This document shows positions 9,339 through 64,000 of a stretch of 64,000 nt of DNA, in pieces. The notes below the pieces were generated by a model that ran no database searches, was not told where the DNA came from, and saw nothing but the letters and a program-made list of their open reading frames with translations. This DNA is from a virus, in the IMG/VR virus record IMGVR_UViG_3300020428_001187, positions 4,245-68,244 of that record, one strand, 5' to 3'. Every line of letters starts with the position of its first letter. The first letter of the stretch is position 1. Position numbers and translations under genes: made by a program.

Positions 9339-9343
9339 TGTGT

Positions 9344-10039: not shown

Positions 10040-10040
10040 T

Positions 10041-25878: not shown

Positions 25879-26775
25879 TTAAGTGCCTATTGCATTTCCG
25901 AATAGATAAACGTGTACTCTTGCCGCCACATTATATCCTCGTTGAAAAGCCAGTTTAGCAACGTCTCCGGCTGTTGCAGTTTGCTCTTCTTCTCTGGCTC
26001 CTACAGGCATAACCCATACAGGCCAATCTACACCTTCTGCTCTAAATTTTTCTATAGCAGAATCCATTTCGTCCCATTGTCTTTGCTCAGAGCCTACAAC
26101 AAATTTTAATTGTCCTGCTTTAGAAACTTGTCTGTATTCTCCAACTACTTCTGGAATAATTGCTTTTTTAGATTCTTCACCTGATACTGTAAACAGTTTA
26201 GGACTACAACTAAAGAATACTTCTTGATCAATTCCTGTAGCCCATTCTTTAAAAGGCTCTTTTAACTTTTGTGTACCGTTAGTTTCAAAAGTCATCGACT
26301 CGGGTAAATTACCTTGTTTTAATAATTCTTCATATATACCAACACTTGCTAACTGTCCTGTAACCATCAAAGGCTCACCACCAGTGAAACATAAGTGTTG
26401 TCTTTGTTTACTCATAGGGTGTAAGAACTTACCTTCTGGGTTCGACTCTGTCTTTAGTATATCAACAATCTTATTTGCTAACACACTAGGAACTTCCTGT
26501 CCCATTAGATGTTTATATTTCTTTGCCCAAGTATAAGAACTATCACAACCTTTTTCCCACACAGGCAAGTCTTCAACTCTTTTTACCTGACTAACGTCAT
26601 AATCCAAAAACGGCAAATCGTATGTTTCTGGATTTGTAGGATCTATCTGTCCAAAGCCACTACATTGTAGATTGCATAGAAAGAAACGTATCCAAGCAGT
26701 AGGCACACCTGTATAGTGTCCTTCACCTTGTATGGAATGAAATATCTCACTGTAATATACTTTTTTCTCTGCCAT
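25879..26775 (-). CDS. queE: 7-carboxy-7-deazaguanine synthase (radical SAM)
   Basis: EIFHSIQGEG..TGVP...IRF..CNLQC, GCDS, TGGEP, ETNGT, SPKL, RVH. Confidence 0.9.
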   Translation of the reverse strand: MAEKKVYYSEIFHSIQGEGHYTGVPTAWIRFFLCNLQCSGFGQIDPTNPETYDLPFLDYDVSQVKRVEDLPVWEKGCDSSYTWAKKYKHLMGQEVPSVLANKIVDILKTESNPEGKFLHPMSKQRQHLCFTGGEPLMVTGQLASVGIYEELLKQGNLPESMTFETNGTQKLKEPFKEWATGIDQEVFFSCSPKLFTVSGEESKKAIIPEVVGEYRQVSKAGQLKFVVGSEQRQWDEMDSAIEKFRAEGVDWPVWVMPVGAREEEQTATAGDVAKLAFQRGYNVAARVHVYLFGNAIGT

Positions 26776-27323: not shown

Positions 27324-27699
27324 GCTCACCACCTGGATCACCTTTAGGCAAGTTTACTTTATAAGGATTACCATTTTTATCTCTCATAATAACATGACCT
27401 CTGCCTCTACCATATGAGTGATATCCTTTAACAAAGTTAAAGGCGTTTGGATTACTTTCAGCAACCTTAAATGTTGCAACAGTAATAACCACTCCTCCGA
27501 TAAACATGATATGAGCAATAGCACTAATACCAAATGCCCATACACTATCTACAATTAAAATTGCAAAAATACTTGACCACATAAATGCTAACACCTGCAT
27601 CATCATATGACGCACTTGTAAGTCTGGAATATGTCTTAATGGATTAATCTTATGATCCATAATACCATTCCAACCTGATACAATCCATTCCTTAATCAC
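27316..27699 (-). CDS. Membrane protein
   Basis: Two TM segments; GTG start 27699 after AGGAG. Confidence 0.55.
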   Translation of the reverse strand: MIKEWIVSGWNGIMDHKINPLRHIPDLQVRHMMMQVLAFMWSSIFAILIVDSVWAFGISAIAHIMFIGGVVITVATFKVAESNPNAFNFVKGYHSYGRGRGHVIMRDKNGNPYKVNLPKGDPGGEHE

Positions 27700-28378
27700 G
27701 TGCAAACTCCTGTTGTAATTTGATGTTATCCATAAACTCTTTTTTAGTACCCATGTCTTTTTCAAATGCACCACGTAAGACTGTAGTTTGTGTTAAACTA
27801 CTTCTTGCCATAATACCTCTGTTCTCACAACAACCATGTGTTGCTTGAATGTAAACACCTACGTTAGGACTGTTAGTTGCTTGTTGAATCTCATTAGCAA
27901 TAACATTATTAAGTTCTTCTTGTAGTGTTCCACGTCTTGCACACCATTGGGCAATACGTGTGTACTTAGAAAGTCCTATAAGTGTTTCCGCGGCAATAAT
28001 ACCAATGTATGCAACACCACTCACTGGTTGGTGATGATGTGAACACATACTTTTAATTTCGCTTCTTACAACAAGCATACCTTTATAGCCATCTTCAATA
28101 TGATTAGGAAATGCAGTTGCATTAGGCATTGGGTTATAACGACCTGACATTAGTTCATTGATGTACATCTTTGCTAGACGTTTACCAGTGTCCATACTGT
28201 TAGGATCATTAAAACGATCTATAACCAAGCTATCAAGCACTTCTTCAAACTTTGGTGTAAGTTCTTCGATAAGTGCTTCTTTGTCACCTGGTTGTAGATG
28301 CTTAGATATGTTGTCACCAGCCCAGTATCTATCTCCTGAGTCTTGTAACTTCTGTATTATTTCTTCACTTTTCTTCAA
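27692..28378 (-). CDS. folE: GTP cyclohydrolase I
   Basis: SMCSHH, GLSK..R, LQEEL, HGCCENRG. Confidence 0.95.
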   Translation of the reverse strand: MKKSEEIIQKLQDSGDRYWAGDNISKHLQPGDKEALIEELTPKFEEVLDSLVIDRFNDPNSMDTGKRLAKMYINELMSGRYNPMPNATAFPNHIEDGYKGMLVVRSEIKSMCSHHHQPVSGVAYIGIIAAETLIGLSKYTRIAQWCARRGTLQEELNNVIANEIQQATNSPNVGVYIQATHGCCENRGIMARSSLTQTTVLRGAFEKDMGTKKEFMDNIKLQQEFARD

Positions 28379-30270: not shown

Positions 30271-30503
30271 TCTACCCACTCTGTAACCTGTATCATTTTG
30301 TGTAGTTTTTCTTTTGCTTCTTTTAAATTCTTTGCAGGTACCCAAGCCTGTCCTAGTCCTTCTGTTGGACTTAATCTTTCAATCTCTAATGCAATATCAC
30401 TATCAGCTTCTTTGCTCATACGTATAACTGCTGGTACTTTAAATTTTAATATATGTACCGTATCTTTTATCTCTGGAAATTTTACTATATTGTCGTCGCT
30501 CAT
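30267..30503 (-). CDS. Hypothetical protein
   Basis: ATGA overlaps on both sides. Confidence 0.55.
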   Translation of the reverse strand: MSDDNIVKFPEIKDTVHILKFKVPAVIRMSKEADSDIALEIERLSPTEGLGQAWVPAKNLKEAKEKLHKMIQVTEWVE

Positions 30504-31204: not shown

Positions 31205-31739
31205 ACTTTCCTACGTTTTCCCAAGGATAAACTAACCAAACGTCTTCCTCAGCTTTATTAACTTCATCACAACGGAAACTAACCATACCAAAGTCACTTG
31301 CTAGGTTTTCAGTTAGTACTGCAAACTTAACATTGTTTCCCCATATTCTTTCCCACTTACCGGGATCGTTATGTCTTGTTTCCCAGTCATTCTTAATCCA
31401 GTTAAACGTAGCACCAGTATCATTTATATCATCTACAATTAAAATCCTTTTAGATGAAGGACCACCTGAAGCTATCTTTCCATCAAGTACACCATATGCA
31501 TCATCGGCCATCCAAGCAACACTATCGCCTGTTTTACCTGTTTCGTTATCTCTTAAACTTACTTTAATTGACTCACAACGTATGCCAGTCATGTTACTAA
31601 TAATTGTAGCAGGTACATTACCGCCTCTTGTGATGCCTACAATGTAATCAGGCTTCCAATTACAAGAGTACATATCAGTTACTATCTCTGTACACATCTG
31701 CTCTACGTCAGTCCATGTGTAATACTTTTTCTTAACCAT
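31194..31739 (-). CDS. Type I purine phosphoribosyltransferase
   Basis: IVGITRGG, PRPP motif IVDDINDTGAT, WLVYPWE. Confidence 0.9.
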   Translation of the reverse strand: MVKKKYYTWTDVEQMCTEIVTDMYSCNWKPDYIVGITRGGNVPATIISNMTGIRCESIKVSLRDNETGKTGDSVAWMADDAYGVLDGKIASGGPSSKRILIVDDINDTGATFNWIKNDWETRHNDPGKWERIWGNNVKFAVLTENLASDFGMVSFRCDEVNKAEEDVWLVYPWENVGKYDS

Positions 31740-32913
31740 CGTTGCTCCTAATATTAAAGTTACCACTAATAGAGTACCTATCAGTGTTTGTTACGTTCTT
31801 TCCAGTGTAGTGGGAAATCTTAGAATCAAATATTAAAAGCATACCTGCCTTAGGTTGTATGACTTTTTCAAAACGAGGCATATCATTTATAAAGACTGTA
31901 AAATGTATGTCACCTTGACCTTCTTCGTGTTGTGGATAATACACAAACGAGTATAAACTTTTTGTATGACTGTGGAATGCAGTACTGCCATTAGGTTCAG
32001 TTTTATGTGTCCAGATACCCGTCAGTTCGACGTCTTTATTTGCATACGCCGTTACTGCTTTTTCTACTTCCCCCATGAAGTGCATACAGGTATCTGAACC
32101 GGGGAACTTAATGTCTTCATAATGGGTATCTTCAGGGTTGGCGTCAATTCTTTCTTGCTCGTTATTAACTATTTCATACATTAAACTATCATTGTCAATG
32201 TTTGGTAAGTTAGTTTCATATACGTCAATACTTGCAATAGTATGTTTGATATCTGTAATAGGCAATGGCGGAGTGTATTCTTGGTGCCACGGGTATGTAT
32301 TTTTGTTACCCATAACAATACCACCTTCAGCCTTGCCGTGTTTTTCTTTTAAAAATTTAATAAATTTAAATGTTGGAGTAAACCTATGTGTATTTCTCAT
32401 AGGTGTTGCAGTATGTAATACGTTACTTTTCCAAAGTAACATTCTGCCTGGAATAGGTGGAATAGCAATTATTTCAGGATACTCAGTTCCTTCATAATTT
32501 TCTTTCTTGTTTTGTAAGTTTGTAATAAACTTTGTTTCACCACCATCATTAATATCCCAATTATTATTTGCATAAAACATAAATGTCCATGCTTCATCGC
32601 TTTCATCATCTACATGATAATAAGCAGGTTCTCTTGGAGCGAATATATTTGCGTGTGATCTTTTTAAAATACAACCATGTGTTTGTGGAAGATGTTCTTC
32701 ACAGAACTTCCATAATGCATGAAATGTTTTTGTGCCTGTGTATTCTCCAGTACTCATTCCTGTTGGAGGTAAGTCTCCATCATCTACTTCTCCATATAGA
32801 TAAGGCCAGTTCTGTACATCACGTACTAGTTCATTAAGCTCTGGTGCACTAAAATAATCATCAATGATTATAAGTCTGCCGTCTAGCTTTTCTGTTATGT
32901 TAGGCGTACTCAT
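31732..32913 (-). CDS. Tandem two-domain 2OG/Fe(II) oxygenase
   Basis: Domain 1: HVD...GGET...LH..R; domain 2: HSH..FVYYP...SH...RYSISGN. Confidence 0.8.
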   Translation of the reverse strand: MSTPNITEKLDGRLIIIDDYFSAPELNELVRDVQNWPYLYGEVDDGDLPPTGMSTGEYTGTKTFHALWKFCEEHLPQTHGCILKRSHANIFAPREPAYYHVDDESDEAWTFMFYANNNWDINDGGETKFITNLQNKKENYEGTEYPEIIAIPPIPGRMLLWKSNVLHTATPMRNTHRFTPTFKFIKFLKEKHGKAEGGIVMGNKNTYPWHQEYTPPLPITDIKHTIASIDVYETNLPNIDNDSLMYEIVNNEQERIDANPEDTHYEDIKFPGSDTCMHFMGEVEKAVTAYANKDVELTGIWTHKTEPNGSTAFHSHTKSLYSFVYYPQHEEGQGDIHFTVFINDMPRFEKVIQPKAGMLLIFDSKISHYTGKNVTNTDRYSISGNFNIRSNDG

Positions 32914-33403: not shown

Positions 33404-33809
33404 CAATGTCCTTTCCTGCAAAGTCGTCCTTGCATAGATTGTAAACTTCTAAAAATCTTTGATACTGTAATTTTAAAGCAGGATACTCAGCAATCATTTC
33501 TAGTATTCTATCCTCAGTTGGCCATGTTTGAACACCAGTTCCCATATCAAAATCTAATCCAAAGTCTCCGTCACCTAATGACCCTGCTCCTGTAAATGAA
33601 GTATTATATGTTACACTAGGTTGTACGCCGTACCTGTCTATACAACCACCTACAGATGCACCTGTTATTGTGTAATTATTATTATCTGTGTCAAAGCTAT
33701 ATTCGTAGTTTGGACTAGCAATACGTGATTCCTCGCTACTAATAGTAACGTCGTTGCCGCCGATTGTTATCTTAAAGTCTTTATTACTGTTAATGTCATC
33801 AGGATCCAT
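33396..33809 (-). CDS. Hypothetical protein
   Basis: ORF tiling; C-terminal YPALK..Y helix. Confidence 0.55.
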   Translation of the reverse strand: MDPDDINSNKDFKITIGGNDVTISSEESRIASPNYEYSFDTDNNNYTITGASVGGCIDRYGVQPSVTYNTSFTGAGSLGDGDFGLDFDMGTGVQTWPTEDRILEMIAEYPALKLQYQRFLEVYNLCKDDFAGKDIDV

Positions 33810-34872
33810 TGCCTATCGCTCCATAAAGTTTTTCACCACTAAAGAAATCTGTTTTCAACTTTGCCACTTGTTTCCTTAAAGTAGGAAGATATTGATCATA
33901 GTTTTCTATGTAGTCTTTTATTCTTTCTATTATCAACACTCTGTGATTTTCATAATCACCGAAACTTTCTGTCCACTTGCTTGGATACTTGAATTGATCC
34001 AAAGCCATTTCCGCATAACTTAATCTATCTGGAACCATTGGAATAGTATCTACTAGAGCACCTTCATACCAACTAATACCTAGTGTTTCTTGTAAGTTAG
34101 CACTAAACACTAGCTTTGCTCTGCCTAATAAGTTATGATATTCCATCTTTGTTAATGATTGTTCTTGACAAACAATTAGTTCATAGTCAGGTAAGTGTGT
34201 TCTTAAATCTCTAAATATATCTGGTTGTTTCTCAGGAGCAACTCTATGTGGAAATAATATAATGTTTTCCTTAGGCATATTCCTGTAACTATCTAAACTG
34301 TTAGCAAGATATTCCATAGGCCAACCAACACGTTGTACCTTAGTCTTATCTGTTGAAAGTCCTACGTAGTTGCCTACTTCTCTAAATGCATCTACAAATA
34401 TGTTTATATGAAAGTCACTTGCAAAGAAGTTGTTATCATAACATTCAAACATAGAACGTTCTGCATTTCTAACCCAAGGTTTATCACCTATAAGCCTTCC
34501 TAGAAAATCTTGCGGATCATAACTACCTGCGTGCCACAAACCACCAACGCGAATATCAACACCCAATAGTTCTGCCATATACCGTAGTTGAATAACTGTA
34601 GGATTCCAGGCATCGGTATAGAGAAAATAATCACCGTCTTTAATTTGTCCGTTACAAAACTTTTCACCTATGATCTCTAACTGCTTACTCTTATAGACAT
34701 TAGTTCCGCCAAAGTTTAAAAAAGCACCAGGCGTAGTTGCCTGTGGTGTTTCTCCTCCACTTATGACTTCAACAGTTTGATTCGTTGCACGTTTTAATTG
34801 TTTAGGAAGATAGTCCTTCCATTGCTTTGTGTAACGAGTGTCTACTGCTTCTATGTCTACAATATATATCAA
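33799..34872 (-). CDS. GT-B fold glycosyltransferase
   Basis: HAGSYD, FPHRVAPEKQ, ETLGISWYEG (ExFG..xxE-type), PDRLSY. Confidence 0.85.
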   Translation of the reverse strand: MIYIVDIEAVDTRYTKQWKDYLPKQLKRATNQTVEVISGGETPQATTPGAFLNFGGTNVYKSKQLEIIGEKFCNGQIKDGDYFLYTDAWNPTVIQLRYMAELLGVDIRVGGLWHAGSYDPQDFLGRLIGDKPWVRNAERSMFECYDNNFFASDFHINIFVDAFREVGNYVGLSTDKTKVQRVGWPMEYLANSLDSYRNMPKENIILFPHRVAPEKQPDIFRDLRTHLPDYELIVCQEQSLTKMEYHNLLGRAKLVFSANLQETLGISWYEGALVDTIPMVPDRLSYAEMALDQFKYPSKWTESFGDYENHRVLIIERIKDYIENYDQYLPTLRKQVAKLKTDFFSGEKLYGAIGNGS

Positions 34873-35100: not shown

Positions 35101-35586
35101 CTAGTATTTTGCGTATTCGATGTGAGCACCATTCTCTCCATCTTCTGAAACATCAATTTGAACTTCTCTGCTAGGATACTTTTCACTTATCTTTGCATAC
35201 AAATCATCGCTAATCATTTCACAAGATTTGTAGTCAAGCTCTAAAGTTTTTTCGCTATACAGTTTTTCCAACCAACGTTTGAATTGAATAAATTCAATAT
35301 CTCTATCATCATGGAATACTTCGATAGCAACTTTAAAATGAAAGATATGCCTATGTGGATAACCTAAGAAGCTAACATCATATTCGTCACCAGTTGCTAG
35401 TTTAGGATCATCTAACGCCGCAGGATATTTGTGGATACCTTCTTTTCTAAATGTAACCCAAATCATTCTTTTTGCAGTATTCATAGTCTTTGCTTTGCCT
35501 TCCTCTTTGTATTTTTGTCTAATAAATTCATCTGTAGACAACCGTTCATGTTCTTGTATTGTAGCATCTTCTAACATATTAATCAA
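35101..35586 (-). CDS. QueD-like T-fold 6-carboxytetrahydropterin synthase
   Basis: GIH, HRH (YPHRHIFHF), SCE, VSEDGENGA; folE/queE context. Confidence 0.7.
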   Translation of the reverse strand: MINMLEDATIQEHERLSTDEFIRQKYKEEGKAKTMNTAKRMIWVTFRKEGIHKYPAALDDPKLATGDEYDVSFLGYPHRHIFHFKVAIEVFHDDRDIEFIQFKRWLEKLYSEKTLELDYKSCEMISDDLYAKISEKYPSREVQIDVSEDGENGAHIEYAKY

Positions 35587-36680: not shown

Positions 36681-36856
36681 TAGTGACCTGCCAATTTATC
36701 CTTAATTGCTAGTTTTATTTTTTTAGTTCTTTTTAAAAGTTCTTCTGTTTGCCAAGATCTGTTTAACTTTCTTTCCTTTGTAAGTTCACCAGTAATCTTG
36801 TCATACCACTTATGTTCGTTCTGTAGCTTTTTCTCGCTCTTACTTGCTTTGTTCAT
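36680..36856 (-). CDS. 58-aa DUF465/YdcH-like coiled-coil protein (absent from ORF track)
   Basis: MNKASKSEKKLQNEH...KKIKLAIKDKL fills the gap; GGAGGAG upstream. Confidence 0.55.
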   Translation of the reverse strand: MNKASKSEKKLQNEHKWYDKITGELTKERKLNRSWQTEELLKRTKKIKLAIKDKLAGH

Positions 36857-38378
36857 TTTCTAACTCCTCCAACTTACTTTCTTGTAAGTCTTCTTCGTCT
36901 GTTTCAGCAACGGCTACACTATCAGCATCATCAAACAATGCATTAAATTGTGTCTGTGCATTGACAGTCTTTTTACCTGTTGCTCCTCTAGTGCCAATGA
37001 TTGACATCCAGAATCTTGAAAACTCTTCAATGATCATATTTGCTTTATCTCTGTCATCAGTTGCAAAGATGGCATCTATTACATCTCTGAAGTATAGTCT
37101 ATCAAATTTTTCTTGTACTAACATATTAGGATAACTACCTGCGTCATACTGTCTGTTAGCTTCTTGTACTGCATTAATATGGCTCCATACATTATGACCC
37201 ATCTGTATAGCATAACTAAAACTATCCCAACTAGTTTTGCCTTCCTTACCTATCTTATTTAGGTCACCTGGAGCATAAATGCAAACGTCTTTAACAGTTA
37301 ATCCTTTAGTTATTGGACTATCTGTAAAGTTTTTAAATATACCATCTGCCAATACTGCATCTCTAAAGTTACGTGTATCCTGTGCATACTTCTTATCATC
37401 AATACTTGGAACCATTCTATAGACCCATTTAGATCTATCCATTGTTTCTGTTTGAATATAAAGTTGTCCGTTAGCAGTTGCTAAGAAAGGACTTGCACAA
37501 TCAAATGTTGCAGTATAGTTTTCGTTGTGATACTTACGAACTGCTCTTTGAATGTCAGTAAGTAGTACTGCCCATTCTAGTTTACTTGTACCTAAGAAGT
37601 GCATAAAGTCATGCTTACCTTTTTCAAGTAAGCCATCAAAACGTAATGCTACCAATCTTTTTAATACTAGATGTATATCACACATATTTTGTCCACCCAT
37701 GGACCAACCATTAAAGTGATCTGTGTATTTCTTAGGATCACAATAGTCTTTCATTTGTTGATACCAGTCTTCAGCATCTGTATGATTTTCACCTTGTAAT
37801 ACATTTAAGAATTTACAATTACCATTACGATTTTTCATAAAGTAATCATTGTTAATACGTGTAGCATTAACGGCATCCTGATAGTTATCAATACCCGTTG
37901 CTTTTGCACCAGCAGGGGATCTTGACACCCAGGCAGGAATATCAAGTATCATTCCATAGTCCATATAAGCATCCATCCACGTAAGAACTTGTTCACGTTT
38001 CTTTTTAGCTTTAGGACAGTTAGGATCTTTCCAATCACCTTCCCATACACCCTTACCAATCTGGAAACCACCTGAGTCTCCTAGTAACCAACTATTGTTA
38101 CGATCCCTGTTACGGATCATATCTTCTTTGGGTGAATCTTTATTAACGTCTAGCTCGGCGTGTCCTGCCGAATATAGACTCCAGTGATAATTAAACATAC
38201 TAGCTTTAGGTTCAAGCCAGTTCATACTCTCTACTTCAGTTGGAAAGTTACTAGGTATCCTAGTCTTATCAACATATTCTTCATAACGTTGCTTACCTAT
38301 AAACGTAGCAAAGAATCCACTAATGGCAGGGAGAAATACTGCATAGTCTTTTTGGGCATTAGTAAGATTAGTGTTCAT
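36840..38378 (-). CDS. TGT-fold guanine transglycosylase (DpdA-like)
   Basis: DSGGFQ, MILDIP, VLQG, WSMGG, HFLG, TFDCASP; no C-terminal CxCxxC Zn site. Confidence 0.8.
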   Translation of the reverse strand: MNTNLTNAQKDYAVFLPAISGFFATFIGKQRYEEYVDKTRIPSNFPTEVESMNWLEPKASMFNYHWSLYSAGHAELDVNKDSPKEDMIRNRDRNNSWLLGDSGGFQIGKGVWEGDWKDPNCPKAKKKREQVLTWMDAYMDYGMILDIPAWVSRSPAGAKATGIDNYQDAVNATRINNDYFMKNRNGNCKFLNVLQGENHTDAEDWYQQMKDYCDPKKYTDHFNGWSMGGQNMCDIHLVLKRLVALRFDGLLEKGKHDFMHFLGTSKLEWAVLLTDIQRAVRKYHNENYTATFDCASPFLATANGQLYIQTETMDRSKWVYRMVPSIDDKKYAQDTRNFRDAVLADGIFKNFTDSPITKGLTVKDVCIYAPGDLNKIGKEGKTSWDSFSYAIQMGHNVWSHINAVQEANRQYDAGSYPNMLVQEKFDRLYFRDVIDAIFATDDRDKANMIIEEFSRFWMSIIGTRGATGKKTVNAQTQFNALFDDADSVAVAETDEEDLQESKLEELENEQSK

Positions 38379-38386
38379 GTAAACTC

Positions 38387-39118
38387 CTACTTGCTTTGTG
38401 CAGGTAAAATATAATTATATGTTGCCATACCTGAATCAACAGTAATTTGCATAGCACCTTGATCTGAAATCTTCATTGTAAGTTTACCATCAAGTCCAAG
38501 TATCGATTGTACCTGTGCTACTGGCCAACTCCAACTATGTTTAAGTTCACCTGTAATACCTTTAGCAAAGTCAAATGATCCTGCGTGTGTGCTATGATCA
38601 CCAAAGTAAAATACAAGATTGTTATTTTCAGTTTTTACTGTAAACACAGTTTCTTCTGTGTGTGCCGCACTTTGCAATTTCATTCTTTGAATACTTGCCA
38701 TGCTTGGCTCTAGTTCTACTTCCCAACTAGCACCTTTAAACTTAACACTCTTAAGTTTTTCATTAATGATTTCTTGATTCATAAATCTGTAATCATTCTG
38801 GAAGTCACCACTTTCATTTTCAAAGTGAATATGTGTAGGAACTTCAGCACCATTTCTAGTTGCTTTCTCTACAGAAAGTTTTGCGTTCTTCTGATACTCT
38901 GGATTCTTTAAGTGTAATGCTAACTTGTCTAAGTTAGGCATACCAAATGTTGCCGCAAACTCTGTTACAGGATTTTTAGTATCAGCAGTTAGAATAACAC
39001 TTCTGTCTTCTGCCATACTTTCGATTTGTGTATTTGCGTCATCTCCTGTAACCTTCACTAGATTCAAAAAACCTAGAGAATGTGTATGTGCAACTACATC
39101 TTGTAAGATATCTTTCAT
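38387..39118 (-). CDS. Sliding clamp (gp45/PCNA-like)
   Basis: 243 aa, C-terminal ISDQGAMQI...YNYILPA; near polB. Confidence 0.75.
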   Translation of the reverse strand: MKDILQDVVAHTHSLGFLNLVKVTGDDANTQIESMAEDRSVILTADTKNPVTEFAATFGMPNLDKLALHLKNPEYQKNAKLSVEKATRNGAEVPTHIHFENESGDFQNDYRFMNQEIINEKLKSVKFKGASWEVELEPSMASIQRMKLQSAAHTEETVFTVKTENNNLVFYFGDHSTHAGSFDFAKGITGELKHSWSWPVAQVQSILGLDGKLTMKISDQGAMQITVDSGMATYNYILPAQSK

Positions 39119-39141
39119 TTACTTTTCTCCTTTGATCTTAT

Positions 39142-39170
39142 ATTGTACATAACTTTAATCATAAAGTCAA
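39142..39170 (-). promoter_or_regulatory. Sigma70-type promoter TTGACT-N17-TACAAT
   Basis: Near-consensus, directly upstream of the clamp-DpdA run. Confidence 0.65.
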
Positions 39171-39890
39171 GTCCTTTTGCGACTTTAGGTACTCAAATAA
39201 TTTGATTTTAGGTGACCATCCAAAGTCTGTTAATTTCGAAATGTCAGCTTTATTGCATAACCTTTCGTTCTCACCACCGATTCTTTCTTCAACTTTTAAA
39301 TCGAAAAAATCCGTAATCTCTTTTAGGGGTGTGCTTATACCCGTTCCAATATCATATACACCAGGTGCTTCACGATTCATAAGAAACGTAATGGCACTAC
39401 AAACATCATCTATATGGATAAAGTCTCGTTTATGATTAGTATGAATATACTCTATTTGGTTTCGTAGTAAACGAGGTACGAACATATTGGGCCTTTGCTG
39501 ACTGTTACTGTATATAGTGCAAAAACGTAGTCCCGTACTTGTATGTGGTGCAAGTTTTTCTAATGTGTATTTTGTCATCGCATAAGGATTTCTATCTGGT
39601 TCTTTTGCAGTACTAGAACTTGCATACATAATCCTTGTGCCTTTAAAATGATCAAATAATCTTTTTGTTGCTATAACATTGTTCTCCCAATATAGTTCAG
39701 GGTGGTCTAAACTCTTACCTATACCGCTTTCACCTGCTAGATGAATTACTAGATCAACATCATAGTTTAAATCACAGGTAAGTAAGTCTTTGCCATCAGC
39801 TCTATCAATACATTGTACCTGATGAGCCGTCAATTTTTTGACAAGGTGGCTTCCTAAAAATCCCTTACTTCCTGTTAATAATATCTTCAT
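39159..39890 (-). CDS. NAD-dependent nucleotide-sugar epimerase/dehydratase
   Basis: TGSKGFLG, IHLAG, YASS, YAMTK, RDFIHIDD. Confidence 0.9.
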   Translation of the reverse strand: MKILLTGSKGFLGSHLVKKLTAHQVQCIDRADGKDLLTCDLNYDVDLVIHLAGESGIGKSLDHPELYWENNVIATKRLFDHFKGTRIMYASSSTAKEPDRNPYAMTKYTLEKLAPHTSTGLRFCTIYSNSQQRPNMFVPRLLRNQIEYIHTNHKRDFIHIDDVCSAITFLMNREAPGVYDIGTGISTPLKEITDFFDLKVEERIGGENERLCNKADISKLTDFGWSPKIKLFEYLKSQKDLTL

Positions 39891-40051
39891 CTTCCTAAAA
39901 ACTTTTTCACCCCTTCGATTGGATTGCGTAAACCTTCATATGTATTGTCAATAAAGTCAATATGTTTGTCTAATTTCTTAGTTAACTTATCAAACTTCTT
40001 TTCAATCCTTTCGAGTCTTTTTTCTATTTCAATTAGTTTCTCTTCAATCAT
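39887..40051 (-). CDS. 54-aa coiled-coil protein (absent from ORF track)
   Basis: MIEEKLIEIEKRLERIEKK...HIDFIDNTYEGLRNP; ATGA overlaps at both ends. Confidence 0.6.
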   Translation of the reverse strand: MIEEKLIEIEKRLERIEKKFDKLTKKLDKHIDFIDNTYEGLRNPIEGVKKFLGR

Positions 40052-40590
40052 TTTTTAACTCCAAAGTGTTTAAATGTAGACTGTATACATTTTGCTTGGT
40101 AGTAACAGTCAGCCAATGCATTGTGCATTTCTTCTTGAATAGCTTTACGTGGATCACTTGGCATCATACTAAACACAGTTCTACTATCTCTAATTTGCCA
40201 GAAGTTCCACGGACAAGGTTTTTTAACATTCTTATATAAATTTTGTAATATAGCATAATCAAACAATGGACCTTGGCACCATAACTGATCAATACCCACA
40301 CAGAACTTATTTAGAGCTTTTGTAAGTTGATCCATGTTTACACGATCCTCGTGTTCACCAAATGCTTCGTCCTGAATGTTCTTTGGTTGTTTGGTCCACC
40401 ATTCCATTGTATTGTCATCTATAGTTCTACCTAGTTCTTCTGATTGTTCTTCGATGTCGCAACGTAGATACAATCCACTATGGGGTTCAACATCAGTATA
40501 AGGATCAAACTTAATTGCTCCTACAGTGATGATAACACTATCTGGCTCAACGCCTAGTGTTTCTAAATCTATCATTCCATGTACTGCCAT
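40048..40590 (-). CDS. DEDDh 3'-5' exonuclease (DexA-like)
   Basis: MIDLETL, FD..IL, RDSRT, HNALADC. Confidence 0.85.
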   Translation of the reverse strand: MAVHGMIDLETLGVEPDSVIITVGAIKFDPYTDVEPHSGLYLRCDIEEQSEELGRTIDDNTMEWWTKQPKNIQDEAFGEHEDRVNMDQLTKALNKFCVGIDQLWCQGPLFDYAILQNLYKNVKKPCPWNFWQIRDSRTVFSMMPSDPRKAIQEEMHNALADCYYQAKCIQSTFKHFGVKK

Positions 40591-43265
40591 TATTCTGCAC
40601 CTCCAAAGTCAAATAGGTTATTAAATGTGTTCTTTTGTAGTGTACTTGCAATATCATAATTAAGTACACCAATTAGATTATCTAGCTTGTTGTCAATGAT
40701 AGTTGACTCCATAGCATCTCCATCAAATGGCAATTCTTTAAACCATTCAGGAATACGTAATTCATCTGTAGGATAAGCAACACTAGTATAACCTAATGGA
40801 TTTTGTTTTAGTTTACAAACAATAACTTTCATACCATCAACAATCTCTTGTGAATACTTGTCATTGTTCATACGTTTAAGTGTGTTCCAATTAATACTTG
40901 CTCGAACGTGTCCGGGCATATTTGCTTTACCTTCACGTTGTTCCTTACGTTGATAATCACCAATTCTATTTGCACGTTTAGGTGAACCTTTCTCATAACC
41001 AGGACGTAGTTTAAACTCTGTTCTAAATTCGCTAATACGTTCTAAGATATCTTTTTCACTTGCTTCTTGTAGCACCATCATTAGCAGTTCACTTAAGAAG
41101 TCTTGCATAAACACAGGAGTATCAGAACGTTTAAGATCCAAGCCCATGGCTTTTACTTTACCTGGCTTGCCATCTACATCTGTACGTTGTCCTTCGTTGT
41201 CATATATCAAGGCCGCATATCTTTTCTTTGTAATGTACAATCCGCTTTCAGCAACAATCTCTCTACCCGCCGCGATAACGTCCGACCGACTTTTTGGACA
41301 ATGGAATGCCTCCATCATAAACTTACCAAATGTTTTGTTTGCTTCTTCGCATACTTGATCATAAAGTTTTATAACACTATCCTTTGTCCAAGGAATCTTG
41401 CCTTCTTCTATTTCTTTTTTCAATATCGGAAATGCACTAAAATAAACGGAGTCAGTATCACCATATATAATGCTGTCTCCTACGTGATCATATTTGCCTG
41501 TAATAACTTTATTAACTTCGGCGCTCATGTGCTTTGCAATAGCTCTACCTGTAAGTGTTGTTGATTGACCAATACGTTTATCAAAGAATCTACAACCTGG
41601 ATTAAGTATTGCACCATATAAACTATTTAGGTTAATCTTCTTAACTAGCTGACGTTTATCCCAAAACGCAATTTCTGTTTTATTACCTGCATCAATGGCT
41701 TTTCCTTTCATAGCCTGTAGCTCTTTACGTTCGCTATACCAACGTTTCAATAGTCCTGGAATAACACCATCAAATTCATTTGTAAGGATAGTACCATTAG
41801 CAGTAAGCATCCATGGTTGATTGCTATTATAAATTAGTTTGTATACTTCTGCACCACTTAATATTTCACTTTCGCCATTCTCAAAGTCAACAGTAAGACT
41901 AACATCTTTCTTCTTCTCCATGACAGCTTCATATTCTATTGTGCCGAACTTACCTTCCCATGCACCTGCAAATGACTTCTTCTGTAATGTCATTTGATCA
42001 TCTACAAATGCCTGTGTTAGTTCGGGACGTAGTTGTCCAACAATAGTTGCTGGATCCATATTCAATGCTCTAATAACAGATGGATACAGTGAATTCAAGT
42101 CCATTGATCCTATCCATTTGTGTAAACCTTTTTTAGGAAATGCCACATAGGCACCTGCCGCCGCAGTATTTTCCTCATCACGTTTAGGCCTGTTAGGAAC
42201 CTGTAGTCCTCTGTGATGTGCTTCATTAATAATTGCTTGTTCTGTAACTGCTACTGCACCCATTGTGGTCTGTAGCAAAACAGTATTTGCATGAGCTAGT
42301 TCATTACTAAGATCGATAAACCTTAGTTTTTTGTCCAGCTTGTCCAGTAGTGCAACGTCTTGTCTGTTGTACTCAATGAATGTCTTGAAGTCATTGTTAT
42401 AAAGTTGATCGAGTGTACCTTCGTAAACAGTTTTGTTTTCACCGATCTCAAGTTCGCCAATAGCGTCAAGTCTGTAAGTGTGTCGTTCTTCATATGTGTA
42501 TTTACGATATAATTCTAAACTATCTAAATGCACTCTACCTATTAGGTCATAGGTTTCAGCTTTCTTACCATACTTCTCATACTCACGTTTCTTAGGAAGT
42601 TGTTTCCATAAACAGAAACGTCTAGTATCATCTTTACTTAAAACTCTTGAAACACGGTTAACTGTATAAGGAATATCATAACCTTCACTGTTCCAACCTG
42701 TTAGTATGTCTGCGTCTTGTATGATATCAAGAAATGCTTCTAGCATATCTCCTTCTTTTTCATACAAGTATGTGTTAGGGAATTCTTCTACTTCTTTCTT
42801 TGCCTGTTCCATTGTTAAGCCCTTGGGCGGAAGTGCAAATGTTACAAGACTATCTAGCCATTGTAAGTGTACTGTGATTGCAGTAATTGGCATGAAAGGA
42901 TCACTAGGATCAGCAAATCCTCTTTCAGGATCAAAGTCTGTCTCAATATCAAAAAAGCAAACATTTAGTTTAGGAGCATCAACATTTAAGTATTGTTCAC
43001 TTAAACATTGGAATATTGGATTTACATCACTTTCAAATAATTCTTTGTTTTGATTGATTGCAAGTTCTTTGCGAAACTGTTTTGTATTTCTAGCAACAAT
43101 CCTACTTAATGGATCGCCATAGATACTTTTGTATTTGCCTCTGGCATCTTTATAAAAGAATGTATATTTGACCGGGTATTCTGTAAAATGTCTCTTTCCG
43201 TCTTTTCGTTCTACTACACGGATAACATCTTGGTCTCTATCGAATTGTGCGTCTACGTAACTCAT
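40590..43265 (-). CDS. Family B DNA polymerase (gp43-like)
   Basis: FDIET exonuclease, DLNSLYPS, KINLNSLYG, YGDTDS, KKRY. Confidence 0.97.
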   Translation of the reverse strand: MSYVDAQFDRDQDVIRVVERKDGKRHFTEYPVKYTFFYKDARGKYKSIYGDPLSRIVARNTKQFRKELAINQNKELFESDVNPIFQCLSEQYLNVDAPKLNVCFFDIETDFDPERGFADPSDPFMPITAITVHLQWLDSLVTFALPPKGLTMEQAKKEVEEFPNTYLYEKEGDMLEAFLDIIQDADILTGWNSEGYDIPYTVNRVSRVLSKDDTRRFCLWKQLPKKREYEKYGKKAETYDLIGRVHLDSLELYRKYTYEERHTYRLDAIGELEIGENKTVYEGTLDQLYNNDFKTFIEYNRQDVALLDKLDKKLRFIDLSNELAHANTVLLQTTMGAVAVTEQAIINEAHHRGLQVPNRPKRDEENTAAAGAYVAFPKKGLHKWIGSMDLNSLYPSVIRALNMDPATIVGQLRPELTQAFVDDQMTLQKKSFAGAWEGKFGTIEYEAVMEKKKDVSLTVDFENGESEILSGAEVYKLIYNSNQPWMLTANGTILTNEFDGVIPGLLKRWYSERKELQAMKGKAIDAGNKTEIAFWDKRQLVKKINLNSLYGAILNPGCRFFDKRIGQSTTLTGRAIAKHMSAEVNKVITGKYDHVGDSIIYGDTDSVYFSAFPILKKEIEEGKIPWTKDSVIKLYDQVCEEANKTFGKFMMEAFHCPKSRSDVIAAGREIVAESGLYITKKRYAALIYDNEGQRTDVDGKPGKVKAMGLDLKRSDTPVFMQDFLSELLMMVLQEASEKDILERISEFRTEFKLRPGYEKGSPKRANRIGDYQRKEQREGKANMPGHVRASINWNTLKRMNNDKYSQEIVDGMKVIVCKLKQNPLGYTSVAYPTDELRIPEWFKELPFDGDAMESTIIDNKLDNLIGVLNYDIASTLQKNTFNNLFDFGGAE

Positions 43266-63355: not shown

Positions 63356-64000
63356 TTATAGCCTTGCTAGTTTAATTAATGTTGCCGCTAAATTTATTTC
63401 AGGATCTACGACTAGTGTGTGATCTACTAGTCCTTGTTTAATAATAATTACTGCTTTGTCTTGTTGTTCTTCAGTACCGAACAATTCAATGTTATCATAC
63501 AGCCATCTGTAAACTTCTTCCATCTCTTCTGCTCTAGCACTTGCACAAACAAGTTTCCTTGCTTCGCTGATCTTACCTGCTTTAAACAGTTCGACCATTT
63601 CAAGTTTCCAGTCAGCTTCGTTTTTGTCGCTTTCGTTTGGCTTTAATAGTTTACCATCTTGTGAATTCATTTGTACTGTATTAATACACTTACGTAGATC
63701 AGGATAACTTGCTTTTACATAAGTGTCTAGTGTATCCAAGTCTGGAGTAACACCTTCTGTGATTAGTATCTCTGCCACCCTTGCAGTAAACTCTGTCATG
63801 TCTACTTTTGCAATATGAAAGCCTTGACATCTTGAATGTAATGCAGGAATAATTCTGTTTGGATAGTTACAAGTTAAAATAAATCTGCTAGTTGTATGAT
63901 ACTCTTCCATCACGCCACGTAATGCCGCCTGTGCATTTGGACTTAGATAATCTGCCTCATCAAGTAGTACAACCTTAAATGGACCAAATGGAATCATTTG
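63356..64000 (-). CDS. Clamp loader AAA+ subunit (RFC/gp44-like), 5'-truncated
   Basis: VVLLDEAD, AQAALR, FILTCNY, SRC, DLRKCIN. Confidence 0.9.
   Translation of the reverse strand, partial: QMIPFGPFKVVLLDEADYLSPNAQAALRGVMEEYHTTSRFILTCNYPNRIIPALHSRCQGFHIAKVDMTEFTARVAEILITEGVTPDLDTLDTYVKASYPDLRKCINTVQMNSQDGKLLKPNESDKNEADWKLEMVELFKAGKISEARKLVCASARAEEMEEVYRWLYDNIELFGTEEQQDKAVIIIKQGLVDHTLVVDPEINLAATLIKLARL

What the first reader, a model, noticed from the sequence alone, without database searches (positions are those of the whole stretch)
36930..40625. Transglycosylase and DNA polymerase share a C-terminal FNxLFD peptide: clamp-tethered DNA modification
Seen: the polymerase ends ...NTFNNLFDFGGAE (motif at 40608-40625). 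The TGT-fold enzyme has ...TQFNALFDD (36930-36947) before an acidic tail, and its gene directly follows the clamp gene. Known: T4-family polymerases and late factors bind gp45 through a C-terminal LxxLF-type peptide. Inference: the base-exchange enzyme rides the sliding clamp and modifies DNA behind the fork, which also argues for DNA rather than tRNA as its substrate.
Basis: partly seen in the sequence, partly recalled or inferred. Interest (0 to 1): 0.75.

Follow-up and report, generated by a model that had tools for sequence, protein, structure and literature searches.

The report
Clamp-docking tail on phage DNA transglycosylase
A large marine phage's guanine-swapping enzyme carries the same short tail peptide as the phage's DNA polymerase, which probably hooks it onto the sliding clamp so that new DNA is chemically disguised as it is copied.

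Summary
The PolB (40590-43265, minus strand) ends TFNNLFDFGGAE. The 512-aa protein (36840-38378, minus strand) has QFNALFD at residues 477-483, and its gene starts 8 nt after the upstream gene. No sequence library names either neighbour, but predicted structures do. The 512-aa protein has a tRNA-guanine-transglycosylase fold (Z 18.1). The 243-aa upstream protein has a PCNA-type sliding-clamp fold (Z 18.9).

The peptide lies in a low-confidence tail outside the fold. L481 and F482 are invariant in 48 aligned homologues down to 32% identity, while the flanks vary. In 26 of 79 close relatives the protein ends within 4 residues of the motif. Distant relatives (Pseudomonas phage PA5oct, Vibrio phage 2.275.O) keep the polymerase-clamp-enzyme order and polymerase-like tails.

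A complex model puts F478, L481 and F482 on the clamp's interdomain loop and C-terminus: ipSAE 0.78, best control 0.00. That pass may reflect likeness to solved PCNA-peptide complexes.

FolE, QueE-like and DpdL-like genes point to 7-deazaguanine in DNA.

Caveats: binding is predicted only, a test for genome-specific co-variation was not significant, and some lineages lack the motif. I found no paper linking DpdA-type enzymes to clamps. A T4 alpha-glucosyltransferase-gp45 precedent exists but is disputed.

The parts
36996..38378 (-). Catalytic core (residues 1-461) of the 512-aa TGT-fold, DpdA-like transglycosylase. Invariant D101 S102 G104 (GDSGGFQ), D146, P148, H260, G263 and D293.
   Evidence: AF2 pLDDT 91.8. 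Foldseek top hits are all tRNA-guanine transglycosylases, E 5.6e-7. VIA Z 18.1 to 2ash_B, 305 residues aligned, rmsd 4.5. Invariant columns. hhalign to the Vibrio phage GR7B TGT-domain protein gives 98.7% probability.
36948..36995 (-). Flexible basic linker (residues 462-477, GTRGATGKKTVNAQTQ) between the core and the motif.
   Evidence: pLDDT below 50 for residues 464-477. G465, G468 and K469 are 100% conserved among close homologues. Residues 470-477 touch the clamp in the complex model.
36930..36947 (-). FNALFD (residues 478-483), the proposed clamp-binding peptide of the transglycosylase.
   Evidence: Of 48 aligned sequences, F478 is kept in 45, and L481 and F482 in all 48. Short helix at 478-481 within a disordered tail. 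The lowest-error contacts with the clamp involve F478, L481 and F482.
36843..36929 (-). Acidic C-terminal extension (residues 484-512). It holds a second conserved helical element, ESKLEELENEQ (about residues 498-510; predicted helix 495-511, window 36846-36896). Function unknown. It is absent from the short forms that end just after the motif.
   Evidence: K502 0.86, L503 0.97, L506 0.92 and E507 0.89 among the 36 of 48 sequences that carry the extension. It makes no confident contact with the clamp.
38387..39118 (-). 243-aa PCNA-like sliding-clamp subunit, immediately upstream of the transglycosylase gene.
   Evidence: AF2 pLDDT 91.9. Foldseek top hits are all PCNA, E 7.4e-11, TM 0.67. VIA Z 18.9 to 8dr4_G, 224 of 243 residues aligned, rmsd 3.1. 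A homologue lies upstream of the enzyme in 63 of 79 loci within 400 nt and in 74 of 75 within 1.5 kb.
40590..43265 (-). Family-B DNA polymerase of the RB69/T4 gp43 type, 891 aa.
   Evidence: Pfam DNA_pol_B 3.1e-33. phrog_262 1.7e-194. Best PDB sequence matches are a run of ~900-residue family-B 'DNA polymerase' chains, E 2e-64 (3kd1_E), including 1clq and 1ig9.
40608..40625 (-). FNNLFD (residues 881-886) in the polymerase C-terminal tail TFNNLFDFGGAE.
   Evidence: The polymerase tail keeps [FYW]xxL[FYW] in its last 15 residues in 68 of 71 loci and 65 of 67 loci.
63356..63997 (-). Clamp-loader AAA+ subunit (gp44-like). The ORF runs off the window end.
   Evidence: Pfam DNA_pol3_delta2 1.6e-8, AAA 1.3e-5, Gp44_lid 1.5e-4.
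35101..35586 (-). DpdL-like T-fold protein (proposed 7-carboxy-7-deazaguanine decarboxylase). It carries the LxxxHRHxF signature (LGYPHRHIF).
   Evidence: BLASTP to phiST CGPG_00067 (DpdL), 4.6e-16, and to PA5oct EST35_0318, 3.2e-50. The signature is quoted from PMC10516641. Sequence.
27692..28378 (-). GTP cyclohydrolase I (FolE), the first step of 7-deazaguanine synthesis.
   Evidence: Pfam GTP_cyclohydroI 2.8e-38. 40% identity to phiST FolE, 1.2e-46.
25879..26775 (-). QueE-like radical-SAM protein (7-carboxy-7-deazaguanine synthase).
   Evidence: Weak NCBIfam QueE matches, best 9.9e-11 and far below the cut-offs. 38% identity to the protein annotated as QueE in PA5oct, 2.5e-56.

Best explanation
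The 512-aa protein is a divergent, unannotated member of the TGT/DpdA superfamily. It exchanges guanine in phage DNA for a 7-deazaguanine base made by the phage's FolE, QueE-like and DpdL-like enzymes, probably 7-deazaguanine or a CDG derivative.

Its folded core ends at about residue 461. A flexible basic linker then presents a short peptide, [FY]xxLF followed by acidic residues. This is the same peptide that ends the phage's gp43-type DNA polymerase. The peptide inserts into the hydrophobic groove of the phage's own PCNA-like clamp, formed by the interdomain connecting loop and the C-terminus. The clamp gene lies directly upstream.

The clamp would therefore work as a toolbelt. It keeps the transglycosylase on freshly replicated duplex, so base exchange is coupled to replication.

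Shown here: the sequence, its conservation, both folds, the disorder of the tail and the gene order. Predicted here: the interface. Inferred: DNA as substrate, the base inserted, and the timing relative to the fork.
For: 1. Folds. The enzyme matches tRNA-guanine transglycosylases: Foldseek E 5.6e-7 with all top hits TGT, and VIA Z 18.1 with 305 residues aligned at rmsd 4.5. There is also a transitive sequence link. hhalign gives 98.7% probability (E 1.6e-16, 266 columns) to a Vibrio phage GR7B 'TGT domain-containing protein'. That protein itself hits Pfam TGT at 2.3e-5, 24.1 bits, below the 26.3 cut-off. The clamp matches PCNA at Z 18.9, 224 of 243 residues, rmsd 3.1. A gp44-like clamp loader is in the window. 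The polymerase's best PDB sequence matches are the ~900-residue family-B chains headed by 3kd1/1clq/1ig9, which by recall are RB69 gp43 (the table prints only 'DNA polymerase'), E 2e-64.

2. Exposure. pLDDT is below 50 for residues 464-477 and 483-488, with a 4-residue helix at 478-481.

3. Conservation against variable flanks. In 48 aligned homologues (32-96% identity), L481 and F482 are kept in all 48 and F478 in 45. Positions 479, 480 and 484-497 vary.

4. Close relatives. In 79 IMG/VR relatives with a complete C-terminus, 71 have [FYW]xxL[FYW] in the last 60 residues and 75 have the loose form. In 26 the protein ends within 4 residues of the motif, as the polymerase does.

5. Distant relatives. 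In 76 more distant relatives (28-50% identity), 52 keep the five-residue pattern and 18 keep only an (L/V)F core at that place. Six have neither.

6. Polymerase tails carry the motif in 68 of 71 and 65 of 67 loci.

7. Independent lineages pair like with like.
- PA5oct: polymerase HFDSLFGW, enzyme SFNSLFD.
- Vibrio phage 2.275.O: polymerase NNTDLFDW, enzyme NNNDLFGW. Both are the true C-termini.
- L083/L086: polymerase NSMFSF, enzyme HNLFDF.
- L076: both have NFF, and the clamp is only 35% identical.
- L111: polymerase FVDDLFG, enzyme SVNDLFD.

8. Complex model: ipSAE 0.82, 0.78 and 0.76, median 0.78, against a best of 3 controls of 0.00. That mark was reached by 58 of 80 solved complexes and 2 of 110 mismatched pairs. 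The runs share at least 53% of contacts, and the partner's pLDDT is at least 50. The interface is partner residues 470-478 and 480-485 against clamp residues 38-42, 123-130, 220-222 and 237-243.

9. DNA as substrate. FolE, QueE-like and DpdL-like with the LxxxHRHxF signature are in the window. Vibrio phage 2.275.O has QueF, QueC, FolE and a precursor transporter next to its homologue. [quoted passage not shown]

10. Precedent for the mechanism. T4 gp43, gp55 and gp33 bind gp45 through interchangeable hydrophobic-acidic C-termini on divergent flexible linkers (PMC2988020, passages).
Against: - No binding has been measured. The complex tool warns that a pass may reflect memory of the many solved PCNA-peptide complexes, and my own alignments make its calibration counts only approximate.
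- Co-variation is weak. Over 114 unique enzyme/polymerase 8-mer pairs, mean identity is 3.61 for own pairs and 3.52 (sd 0.06) for shuffled pairs. 330 of 5000 shuffles reached the observed value. The shared consensus is solid, but the genome-specific examples are anecdotes.
- The motif is not universal. It is absent in 4 of 79 close relatives and 6 of 76 distant relatives. Of 93 full-length cluster representatives, only 23 have the strict pattern in the last 70 residues.
- F..LF alone is not rarer than chance in this proteome.
- Clamp residues at the predicted interface are only modestly enriched for conservation. By my count, 12 of 26 are at least 90% conserved, against 85 of 243 overall.
- The PA5oct record labels the clamp homologue 'structural protein (ESI-MS/MS)'. 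The RNase H and an ATPase carry the same note, so it marks mass-spectrometry detection rather than a role.
- Enzyme activity is unproven. There is no Pfam TGT hit for the protein itself or for any of 95 aligned members. A direct TGT-HMM search of the contig also found nothing. The CxCxxC found at the aligned place in the GR7B protein is missing here.
Confidence: 0.6

Rival explanations
1. The shared peptide is a docking motif for some other common partner of the polymerase and the enzyme, such as the clamp loader, the single-strand-binding protein, the helicase-primase or a chaperone. The enzyme is recruited to the replisome, but not through the clamp groove.
For: Conservation and similarity to the polymerase tail show a shared partner, not which one. 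The clamp-side interface is only weakly enriched for conserved residues. For T4, the review notes more than one attachment site on gp45 and that clamp-binding ends are not uniformly conserved in the family. A second conserved acidic helix in the tail hints at further partners.
Against: The complex model places the motif with low error in the canonical clamp groove, and the control with an unrelated protein in place of the clamp scored 0.00. The clamp gene is the conserved immediate neighbour. In the gp43 family, the C-terminal tail of the polymerase is the established clamp ligand.
Confidence: 0.17
2. The enzyme is clamp-tethered but is not a 7-deazaguanine inserter. It could be a DNA glycosylase, a base-excision enzyme, or a non-catalytic DNA-binding factor built on a TGT scaffold. 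Alternatively it acts on tRNA, and the tail serves only for localisation.
For: There is no Pfam TGT hit. The zinc-type CxCxxC at the aligned position of a related TGT-domain protein is absent. No QueC or QueD was recognised in the 68-kb fragment. The authors of PMC10516641 could not reconstitute their DpdA3, DpdA4 or DpdL enzymes in E. coli, so chemistry in divergent DpdA families is untested.
Against: D101 (in DSGG), D146 and D293 are invariant across 95 sequences. The gene is consistently linked with FolE, QueE, DpdL, QueF and QueC in four lineages. PA5oct DNA shows G-linked restriction resistance. The contig is only about 19% of a genome by CheckV, so the missing pathway genes may lie elsewhere.
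Confidence: 0.13
3. The resemblance has no functional meaning. A short hydrophobic-acidic peptide arose or persisted in a low-complexity tail, and the structure predictor docks any such peptide onto any PCNA-like protein.
For: F..LF is common by chance. The co-variation test was not significant. Some lineages lack the motif. The tool itself warns of memory effects.
Against: L481 and F482 are invariant amid freely varying flanks at identities down to 32%. The motif recurs at the extreme C-terminus in lineages whose tails have been remodelled: lost at the old site and present at a new C-terminus in L066, and terminal in Vibrio 2.275.O and L083. FN.LFD occurs twice against 0.0105 expected. Two unrelated ~50-residue control partners scored 0.00.
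Confidence: 0.1

Closest known systems
C-terminal sliding-clamp-binding epitopes of T4-family gp43, gp55 and gp33 (PMC2988020, passages read)
   Same: A short hydrophobic-plus-acidic peptide at or near the C-terminus, on a divergent flexible linker, shared between the gp43-type polymerase and a non-polymerase client of the phage's own trimer-type clamp. The polymerase here has its best PDB sequence matches among those ~900-residue family-B chains, RB69 gp43 by recall.
   Different: The second client is a DNA base-modifying enzyme, not a transcription factor. The clamp is too diverged for Pfam gp45 models, and all 50 listed structural matches are PCNAs. In the window's form, the motif is followed by a 29-residue acidic extension with a second conserved helix.
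PIP-box clients of PCNA that act on DNA behind the fork, such as DNMT1 and UNG2 (recalled, not checked here)
   Same: A DNA-modifying or base-excising enzyme is tethered to the replication clamp by a short helical peptide that lies in the groove under the interdomain connecting loop. The spacing Q475-x-x-F478-x-x-L481-F482 mimics Qxx[LIVM]xx[FY][FY].
   Different: Q475 is not conserved: Q in 10 and S in 31 of 47 sequences. The aromatic pair is L-F. This is a phage system, and the chemistry is base exchange rather than methylation or excision.
T4 alpha-glucosyltransferase-gp45 hypothesis (bioRxiv 10.64898/2025.12.06.692756, passages read)
   Same: The idea that a phage DNA-hypermodifying enzyme binds the phage clamp and modifies DNA concomitantly with replication.
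   Different: That interaction is disputed. The 2025 preprint found no co-purification of gp45 with C-terminally His-tagged alpha-GT or beta-GT, in vitro or in vivo. No polymerase-like tail peptide is mentioned in the passages I read. Here, a conserved polymerase-like peptide is the evidence.
DpdA DNA transglycosylases: bDpdA and DpdA1-4 (PMC10516641 passages; PMC6884629 and PMC10164549 seen in a search listing only)
   Same: A TGT-superfamily enzyme encoded beside 7-deazaguanine synthesis genes in a phage. Like phiST DpdA3, it lies between the polymerase gene and a FolE/QueE/DpdL set and is invisible to ordinary Pfam scans.
   Different: It is 512 aa against 259 aa for phiST DpdA3. hhalign to phiST DpdA3 gives only 83% probability over 83 columns. 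tblastn at E up to 10 against 50,697 phage records finds none of the characterised DpdA phages. 'Clamp' occurs 0 times in the main text of PMC10516641. That paper's supplementary protein lists, which might include PA5oct-like proteins, could not be read.

Membership tests
TGT / DpdA superfamily (guanine-exchange transglycosylases) | TGT (beta/alpha)8-barrel fold | tested here: met
   AF2 pLDDT 91.8. Foldseek top 50 are all tRNA-guanine transglycosylases, best E 5.6e-7. VIA Z 18.1 to 2ash_B (305 aligned, rmsd 4.5) and Z 17.6 to archaeosine TGT 1iq8_A.
TGT / DpdA superfamily (guanine-exchange transglycosylases) | Match to Pfam PF01702 (TGT) above the curated cut-off | tested here: not met
   There are 0 Pfam families for the protein. 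No TGT hit in any of 95 aligned members. The TGT HMM found nothing in the six frames of the contig at E up to 10, whereas all 14 control genomes matched. There is only a transitive link: hhalign 98.7% to the GR7B protein, which scores 24.1 bits against a 26.3 cut-off. An Atlas neighbour cluster at rank 14 carries PF01702 on 17% of its members.
TGT / DpdA superfamily (guanine-exchange transglycosylases) | Conserved catalytic aspartates (the DSGG[FY]Q aspartate and a second nucleophile aspartate; their roles are recalled from Z. mobilis TGT) | tested here: inconclusive
   D101 in GDSGGFQ and D293 in FDCASPF are invariant in 95 sequences. GDSGGFQI aligns with sdsggfqi of the GR7B TGT-domain protein. 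No residue-level superposition on a solved TGT was available.
TGT / DpdA superfamily (guanine-exchange transglycosylases) | Structural zinc site (CxCxxC...H; recalled as typical of TGTs) | tested here: not met
   In the hhalign alignment, the GR7B protein has c-ncpvc where the window protein has DSPITKG. The family consensus there has no cysteines.
DpdA (DNA 7-deazaguanine transglycosylase) function | Encoded with 7-deazaguanine biosynthesis genes | tested here: met
   FolE 2.8e-38. QueE-like. DpdL-like with LxxxHRHxF. PA5oct has QueE and a DpdL homologue nearby. Vibrio 2.275.O has QueF, QueC, FolE and a transporter nearby.
DpdA (DNA 7-deazaguanine transglycosylase) function | Inserts a 7-deazaguanine base into DNA | not testable with these tools
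   The only indirect evidence is that PA5oct DNA resists five G-containing restriction enzymes (PMC12191111).
DpdA3 subfamily (phiST / Campylobacter phage type) | Sequence homology to phiST CGPG_00065 | tested here: inconclusive
   hhalign gives probability 83%, E 9.1e-6, over 83 columns only. The lengths are 512 and 259 aa. The phiST protein has no FxxLF tail.
Sliding clamp (PCNA/gp45 class), for the 243-aa neighbour | Two-domain processivity fold over the full length | tested here: met
   pLDDT 91.9. VIA Z 18.9, 224 of 243 residues, rmsd 3.1. Foldseek E 7.4e-11.
Sliding clamp (PCNA/gp45 class), for the 243-aa neighbour | Trimeric ring that encircles DNA and is loaded by a clamp loader | not tested
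   Only a gp44-like clamp-loader gene is present in the window. No oligomer was modelled.
Canonical PIP box | Qxx[LIVM]xx[FY][FY] | tested here: not met
   The window has Q475-T-Q-F478-N-A-L481-F482. The spacing fits, but the hydrophobic residue is F, the aromatic pair is L-F, and Q475 is Q in only 10 of 47 sequences.
T4-family clamp-binding C-terminal epitope | Hydrophobic-acidic peptide at or near the C-terminus, on a divergent flexible linker, similar to that of the cognate polymerase | tested here: met
   The definition is taken from PMC2988020.
T4-family clamp-binding C-terminal epitope | Physical binding to the clamp | not testable with these tools
   Prediction only: ipSAE 0.78 against a best control of 0.00. 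That mark was reached by 58 of 80 solved complexes and 2 of 110 mismatched pairs.

The most novel reading that the evidence does not exclude
In this widespread group of large phages (marine relatives, PA5oct-like Pseudomonas phages, a Vibrio jumbo phage), the sliding clamp is a toolbelt for genome hypermodification. A polymerase-type tail turns a distributive guanine-exchange enzyme into a replication-coupled one. This would be the missing explanation for how a post-replicative transglycosylase can reach very high or complete G replacement. The second conserved acidic helix would be a regulatory module, for instance a DNA-mimicking autoinhibitor released on clamp binding or a handle for a second replisome protein. 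Other enzymes in related phages, such as a ~190-aa MutH-like protein and a neighbour that starts MFNELFDF, would use the same docking code.
Probability: 0.3. Interest if true: 0.85.

Novelty: new variant of a known kind. Interest (0 to 1): 0.68.

Why it matters
Phage 7-deazaguanine DNA is a current topic in the phage-defence arms race. How a base-exchange enzyme working after replication can replace a large share of guanines, or all of them, is an open question. PMC10516641 proposes post-replicative insertion and notes complete replacement with DpdA3, and its main text never uses the word 'clamp'.

A conserved polymerase-like clamp-docking tail on a TGT-fold enzyme gives a concrete hypothesis that can be tested by mutation: replication-coupled modification. 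It can be tested in a cultured relative, PA5oct. The older idea that T4 alpha-glucosyltransferase rides gp45 is now disputed, so a system with an explicit motif would settle whether phage hypermodification enzymes ever use the clamp.

The finding also names a very abundant, unannotated protein family. There are 7989 homologues among the 8000 candidates scored and 1003 representatives at 50% clustering. Every source name seen was 'hypothetical protein'. Finally, it adds a new, Pfam-invisible branch to the DpdA/TGT superfamily.

Tried and rejected
- Sequence annotation of the 512-aa and 243-aa proteins gave nothing useful. This covered Pfam, PHROGs, NCBIfam, PDB phmmer and PDB profile searches. 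A TGT-HMM scan of the contig also found nothing.
- A megablast of 8 kb against 50,697 phage records gave no match.
- Membership in phiST-type DpdA3 is rejected as a filing. The match is a weak partial hhalign hit and the protein is half the length.
- Genome-specific co-variation between enzyme and polymerase tails was not significant: 330 of 5000 shuffles reached the observed value. The motif picker in that script mis-chose a core 'KFW' site in a few loci (L057, L064, L072, L077), and L083 was dropped as a duplicate of L086.
- I tested whether the Phosso lineage keeps a clamp upstream. These enzymes lie next to a DnaE-like fragment, a primase and DnaB, and their tails end EGLF, NSLFTI or PSLFG. 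hhalign of the upstream 240-aa and 306-aa proteins against the clamp alignment gave probabilities of 0.1% and 0.4%. The idea that these tails are beta-clamp-type motifs remains speculation.
- Single-protein locus searches with distant homologues gave 1 and 0 loci. One alignment was too diverse to search with.
- I looked for other clamp clients in the window. Apart from the polymerase, the only C-terminal candidates are weak, for example ELTDLFV at the end of ORF 3329-4447.
- Only one complex job was allowed, so the polymerase tail, the clamp trimer, the full-length enzyme and the second helix were not modelled.
- Literature searches for a published link found no paper that connects them: DpdA + sliding clamp, DpdA + PCNA, deazaguanine + transglycosylase + phage + replisome, clamp-binding motif + hypermodif + phage, and 7-deazaguanine + sliding clamp. 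Only the T4 GT preprint from these listings was read.

Full report
**What is there.** The window is 64 kb of a 68,244-base IMG/VR virus record (35% GC). CheckV rates the record about 19% complete, so it is a fragment of a very large phage. The relevant genes are all on the minus strand:
- an 891-aa family-B DNA polymerase (40590-43265);
- an Rv2179c-like exonuclease and an NAD-dependent epimerase;
- a 243-aa ORF (38387-39118);
- 8 nt further on, a 512-aa ORF (36840-38378).

The polymerase ends TFNNLFDFGGAE, with FNNLFD at 40608-40625. The 512-aa protein reads ...GTRGATGKKTVNAQTQFNALFDDADSV...ESKLEELENEQSK, with FNALFD at 36930-36947. The coordinates and sequences of the finding are exact.

**Is it more than chance?** The loose pattern F..LF is not rare in this proteome. 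It occurs 3 times against 3.4 in shuffles, and in the last 40 residues of 2 ORFs against 0.65 expected (P = 0.14). The shared hexapeptide FN.LFD occurs twice against 0.0105 expected, and 0 of 2000 shuffles gave two. No other long gene of the contig has F..LF near its C-terminus. The real weight comes from conservation, described below.

**What the proteins are.** No sequence library names the 512-aa or the 243-aa protein. Sources that hold homologues call them 'hypothetical protein'. Predicted structures are confident and decisive.
- The 512-aa protein has mean pLDDT 91.8. It matches only tRNA-guanine transglycosylases: Foldseek E 5.6e-7, VIA Z 18.1 to 2ash_B with 305 residues aligned at rmsd 4.5, and Z 17.6 to archaeosine TGT 1iq8.
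- A 95-sequence alignment has invariant D101, S102 and G104 (GDSGGFQ), D146, P148, H260, G263 and D293.
- hhalign links this alignment at 98.7% probability to a Vibrio phage GR7B 'TGT domain-containing protein'. That protein scores just below Pfam's TGT cut-off. At the place where it has CxCxxC, the window family has no cysteines.
- The 243-aa protein has pLDDT 91.9 and is a PCNA-type clamp subunit: Z 18.9, 224 of 243 residues, rmsd 3.1.
- A gp44-like clamp loader lies at the window's end.
- The polymerase's best solved relatives by sequence are a run of ~900-residue family-B DNA polymerases headed by 3kd1, 1clq and 1ig9 (RB69 gp43 by recall; the table names them only 'DNA polymerase'), E 2e-64.

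**The tail.** The fold ends near residue 461. Residues 464-477 and 483-488 have pLDDT below 50. The motif forms a four-residue helix at 478-481, and a further helix spans 495-511. The motif is therefore exposed, not buried.

**Conservation.** The family is very large: 7989 hits among 8000 scored candidates and 1003 representatives at 50% clustering.
- In 48 aligned homologues (32-96% identity), L481 and F482 are invariant and F478 is kept in 45. Positions 479, 480 and 484-497 vary freely.
- Among 79 IMG/VR relatives with a complete C-terminus, 71 have [FYW]xxL[FYW] in the last 60 residues and 75 have the loose form. In 26 the protein stops within four residues of the motif, as the polymerase does. 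Four lack it.
- Among 76 more distant relatives (28-50% identity), 52 keep the pattern, 18 keep only an (L/V)F core with acidic flanks, and 6 have neither.
- Of 93 full-length cluster representatives, only 23 show the strict pattern in the last 70 residues. Many others end in xLFxF-type tails.
- Polymerase tails keep the motif in 68 of 71 and 65 of 67 loci.
- A clamp homologue lies within 400 nt upstream of the enzyme in 63 of 79 loci, and within 1.5 kb in 74 of 75.

**Independent lineages.**
- PA5oct (33% identical enzyme) has the order polymerase, clamp homologue, small ORF, TGT-like enzyme. Its tails are HFDSLFGW for the polymerase and SFNSLFD plus an acidic stretch and DEKLTELEQG for the enzyme.
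- Vibrio phage 2.275.O has both proteins ending in near-identical true C-termini, NNTDLFDW and NNNDLFGW.
- L083/L086 has NSMFSF and HNLFDF.
- L076 has NFF in both proteins, with a clamp only 35% identical.
- L111 has VDDLFG and VNDLFD.
- In L066, the motif is lost at the old site and present at a new C-terminus.

These cases look like co-evolution with one pocket, but a crude permutation test did not support genome-specific matching beyond the shared consensus. Own-pair identity was 3.61 against 3.52 (sd 0.06) for shuffled pairs, and 330 of 5000 shuffles reached the observed value.

It gave ipSAE 0.82, 0.78 and 0.76, median 0.78, against 0.00 for the best of three controls. That mark was reached by 58 of 80 solved complexes and 2 of 110 mismatched pairs. 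The runs share at least 53% of contacts, and the partner's pLDDT is at least 50.

The interface is partner residues 470-478 and 480-485. F478, L481 and F482 make the lowest-error contacts with clamp residues 38-42, 123-130 (the interdomain connecting loop), 220-222 and 237-243 (the C-terminus). This is the classical peptide groove of PCNA-type clamps.

The model supports binding but does not show it. Many PCNA-peptide complexes are solved, so the pass may partly reflect likeness to them. The second helix made no confident contact.

**Substrate.** The window encodes three pathway genes:
- FolE;
- a QueE-like radical-SAM protein, 38% identical to the protein annotated as QueE in PA5oct;
- a homologue of phiST DpdL, the proposed CDG decarboxylase, with its published signature LxxxHRHxF, here LGYPHRHIF.

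The Vibrio relative has QueF, QueC, FolE and a precursor transporter beside the enzyme. A preprint reports that PA5oct DNA resists five G-containing restriction enzymes and infers a modified G. The passages I read name QueE and a PTPS-like gene but not this enzyme. DNA is thus the likely substrate, and a 7-deazaguanine or CDG derivative the likely base. No QueC or QueD was recognised in this fragment.

**Comparison with what is known.** The mechanism is that of the T4 family. [quoted passage not shown] The spacing QxxFxxLF also mimics a PIP box, but Q475 is not conserved.

The enzyme belongs to the TGT/DpdA superfamily by fold and context, but it fails Pfam's TGT model. It is not a phiST-type DpdA3, which is 259 aa and gives an hhalign probability of 83% over 83 columns.

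The idea that a phage hypermodification enzyme rides the clamp was proposed for T4 alpha-glucosyltransferase. A 2025 preprint contradicted it, using C-terminally tagged proteins.

Searches for DpdA or 7-deazaguanine together with clamp, PCNA or replisome found no paper linking them. 'Clamp' does not occur in the main text of PMC10516641. Its supplementary tables could not be read and might already list PA5oct-like proteins as DpdA.

**Verdict.** I put the clamp-tethered DNA 7-deazaguanine transglycosylase reading at about 0.6. The rivals are a different shared partner (0.17), a different chemistry or substrate (0.13), and a functionless resemblance (0.10). It is a new variant of a known kind: a clamp client of a new enzyme class, on a new and very abundant branch of the DpdA/TGT superfamily.

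Noticed in passing
window 36846-36896 (-), residues 495-511 of the 512-aa protein: There is a second conserved element in the acidic tail, ESKLEELENEQ. K502, L503, L506 and E507 are 86-97% conserved among the 36 of 48 sequences that have the extension. It recurs as DEKLTELEQG in PA5oct and as D(D/E)xLxxLE in distant marine relatives, but it is missing from the short forms. It is a predicted helix, makes no confident clamp contact, and has no known function.
   Followed up: partly
window 35101-35586 (-): This protein is a homologue of phiST DpdL, the proposed 7-carboxy-7-deazaguanine decarboxylase, and carries the published LxxxHRHxF signature (LGYPHRHIF). It is 60% identical to PA5oct EST35_0318. 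This suggests that 7-deazaguanine itself, rather than preQ0, is the inserted base. PHROGs files it only under a family of unknown function.
   Followed up: partly
L068:13779-14366, L065:10470-11084, L128:11512-12138, L152:12402-12956 (+): A ~190-aa protein family lies downstream of the enzyme in four related loci. Three of the four end in the same kind of peptide: HFDNLFEPA, TYVSLFEETV and TFQNLFAYDN. The fourth ends in NNTTLFE. One of the three scanned gives a weak Pfam MutH hit (E 0.018). This may be another clamp client. There is no homologue in the window.
   Followed up: partly
L085:13726-14838 (+), Vibrio phage 2.275.O NVP2275O_469: The 370-aa gene directly after the TGT-like gene begins MFNELFDF, a polymerase-tail-like motif at the N-terminus. 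It has a weak Amidoligase_2 hit (1.8e-4). It gave no BLASTP hit (E <= 0.01) to any of the window's 101 chosen ORFs, the 357-aa neighbour included.
   Followed up: partly
window 33799-34872 (-): This 357-aa protein of unknown function (no Pfam or PHROG hit) is 43% identical to the PA5oct gene that directly follows the TGT-like gene (E 3.6e-99). It is a conserved member of the cluster and a candidate for a further modification step.
   Followed up: partly
L081 (PA5oct) 5605-10831; L039 4346-7777: In PA5oct, the polymerase gene is split by a Hef-like homing endonuclease. In locus L039, the polymerase ORF ends in an intein- or HEG-like insert (...VTEDHSLIVDRHG...). The polymerase gene is a hot spot for mobile insertions in this phage group.
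   Followed up: no
L084 (Sinorhizobium phage Phosso), L126, L160: In a third lineage, the enzyme sits between a DnaE-like fragment and primase/DnaB genes, with no PolB or PCNA-like clamp nearby. Its tails end in a bare xLF (EGLF, NSLFTI, PSLFG). This is reminiscent of bacterial beta-clamp motifs, but that is speculation. The upstream proteins are not clamp homologues by hhalign.
   Followed up: partly
window 29526-31766 (-): A HIT-family protein, a small HhH-GPD (EndoIII/MutY-like) protein and a phosphoribosyltransferase lie in a row near the deazaguanine genes. A PRTase could make a 7-deazaguanine nucleotide, which would allow a pre-replicative route as well. phiST also has a PRTase.
   Followed up: no
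window 3329-4447 (-): This 372-aa ORF, one of several radical-SAM-looking ORFs at the left end of the window, ends ...CPELTDLFV. That is a weak resemblance to the DLF-type tails of the Vibrio phage and may be chance.
   Followed up: no
L081:10912-11658 (PA5oct EST35_0314): The PA5oct homologue of the clamp (35% identity, E 1.2e-49) is annotated 'structural protein, ESI-MS/MS' in GenBank. The fold evidence here suggests it should be re-annotated as a sliding clamp.
   Followed up: partly
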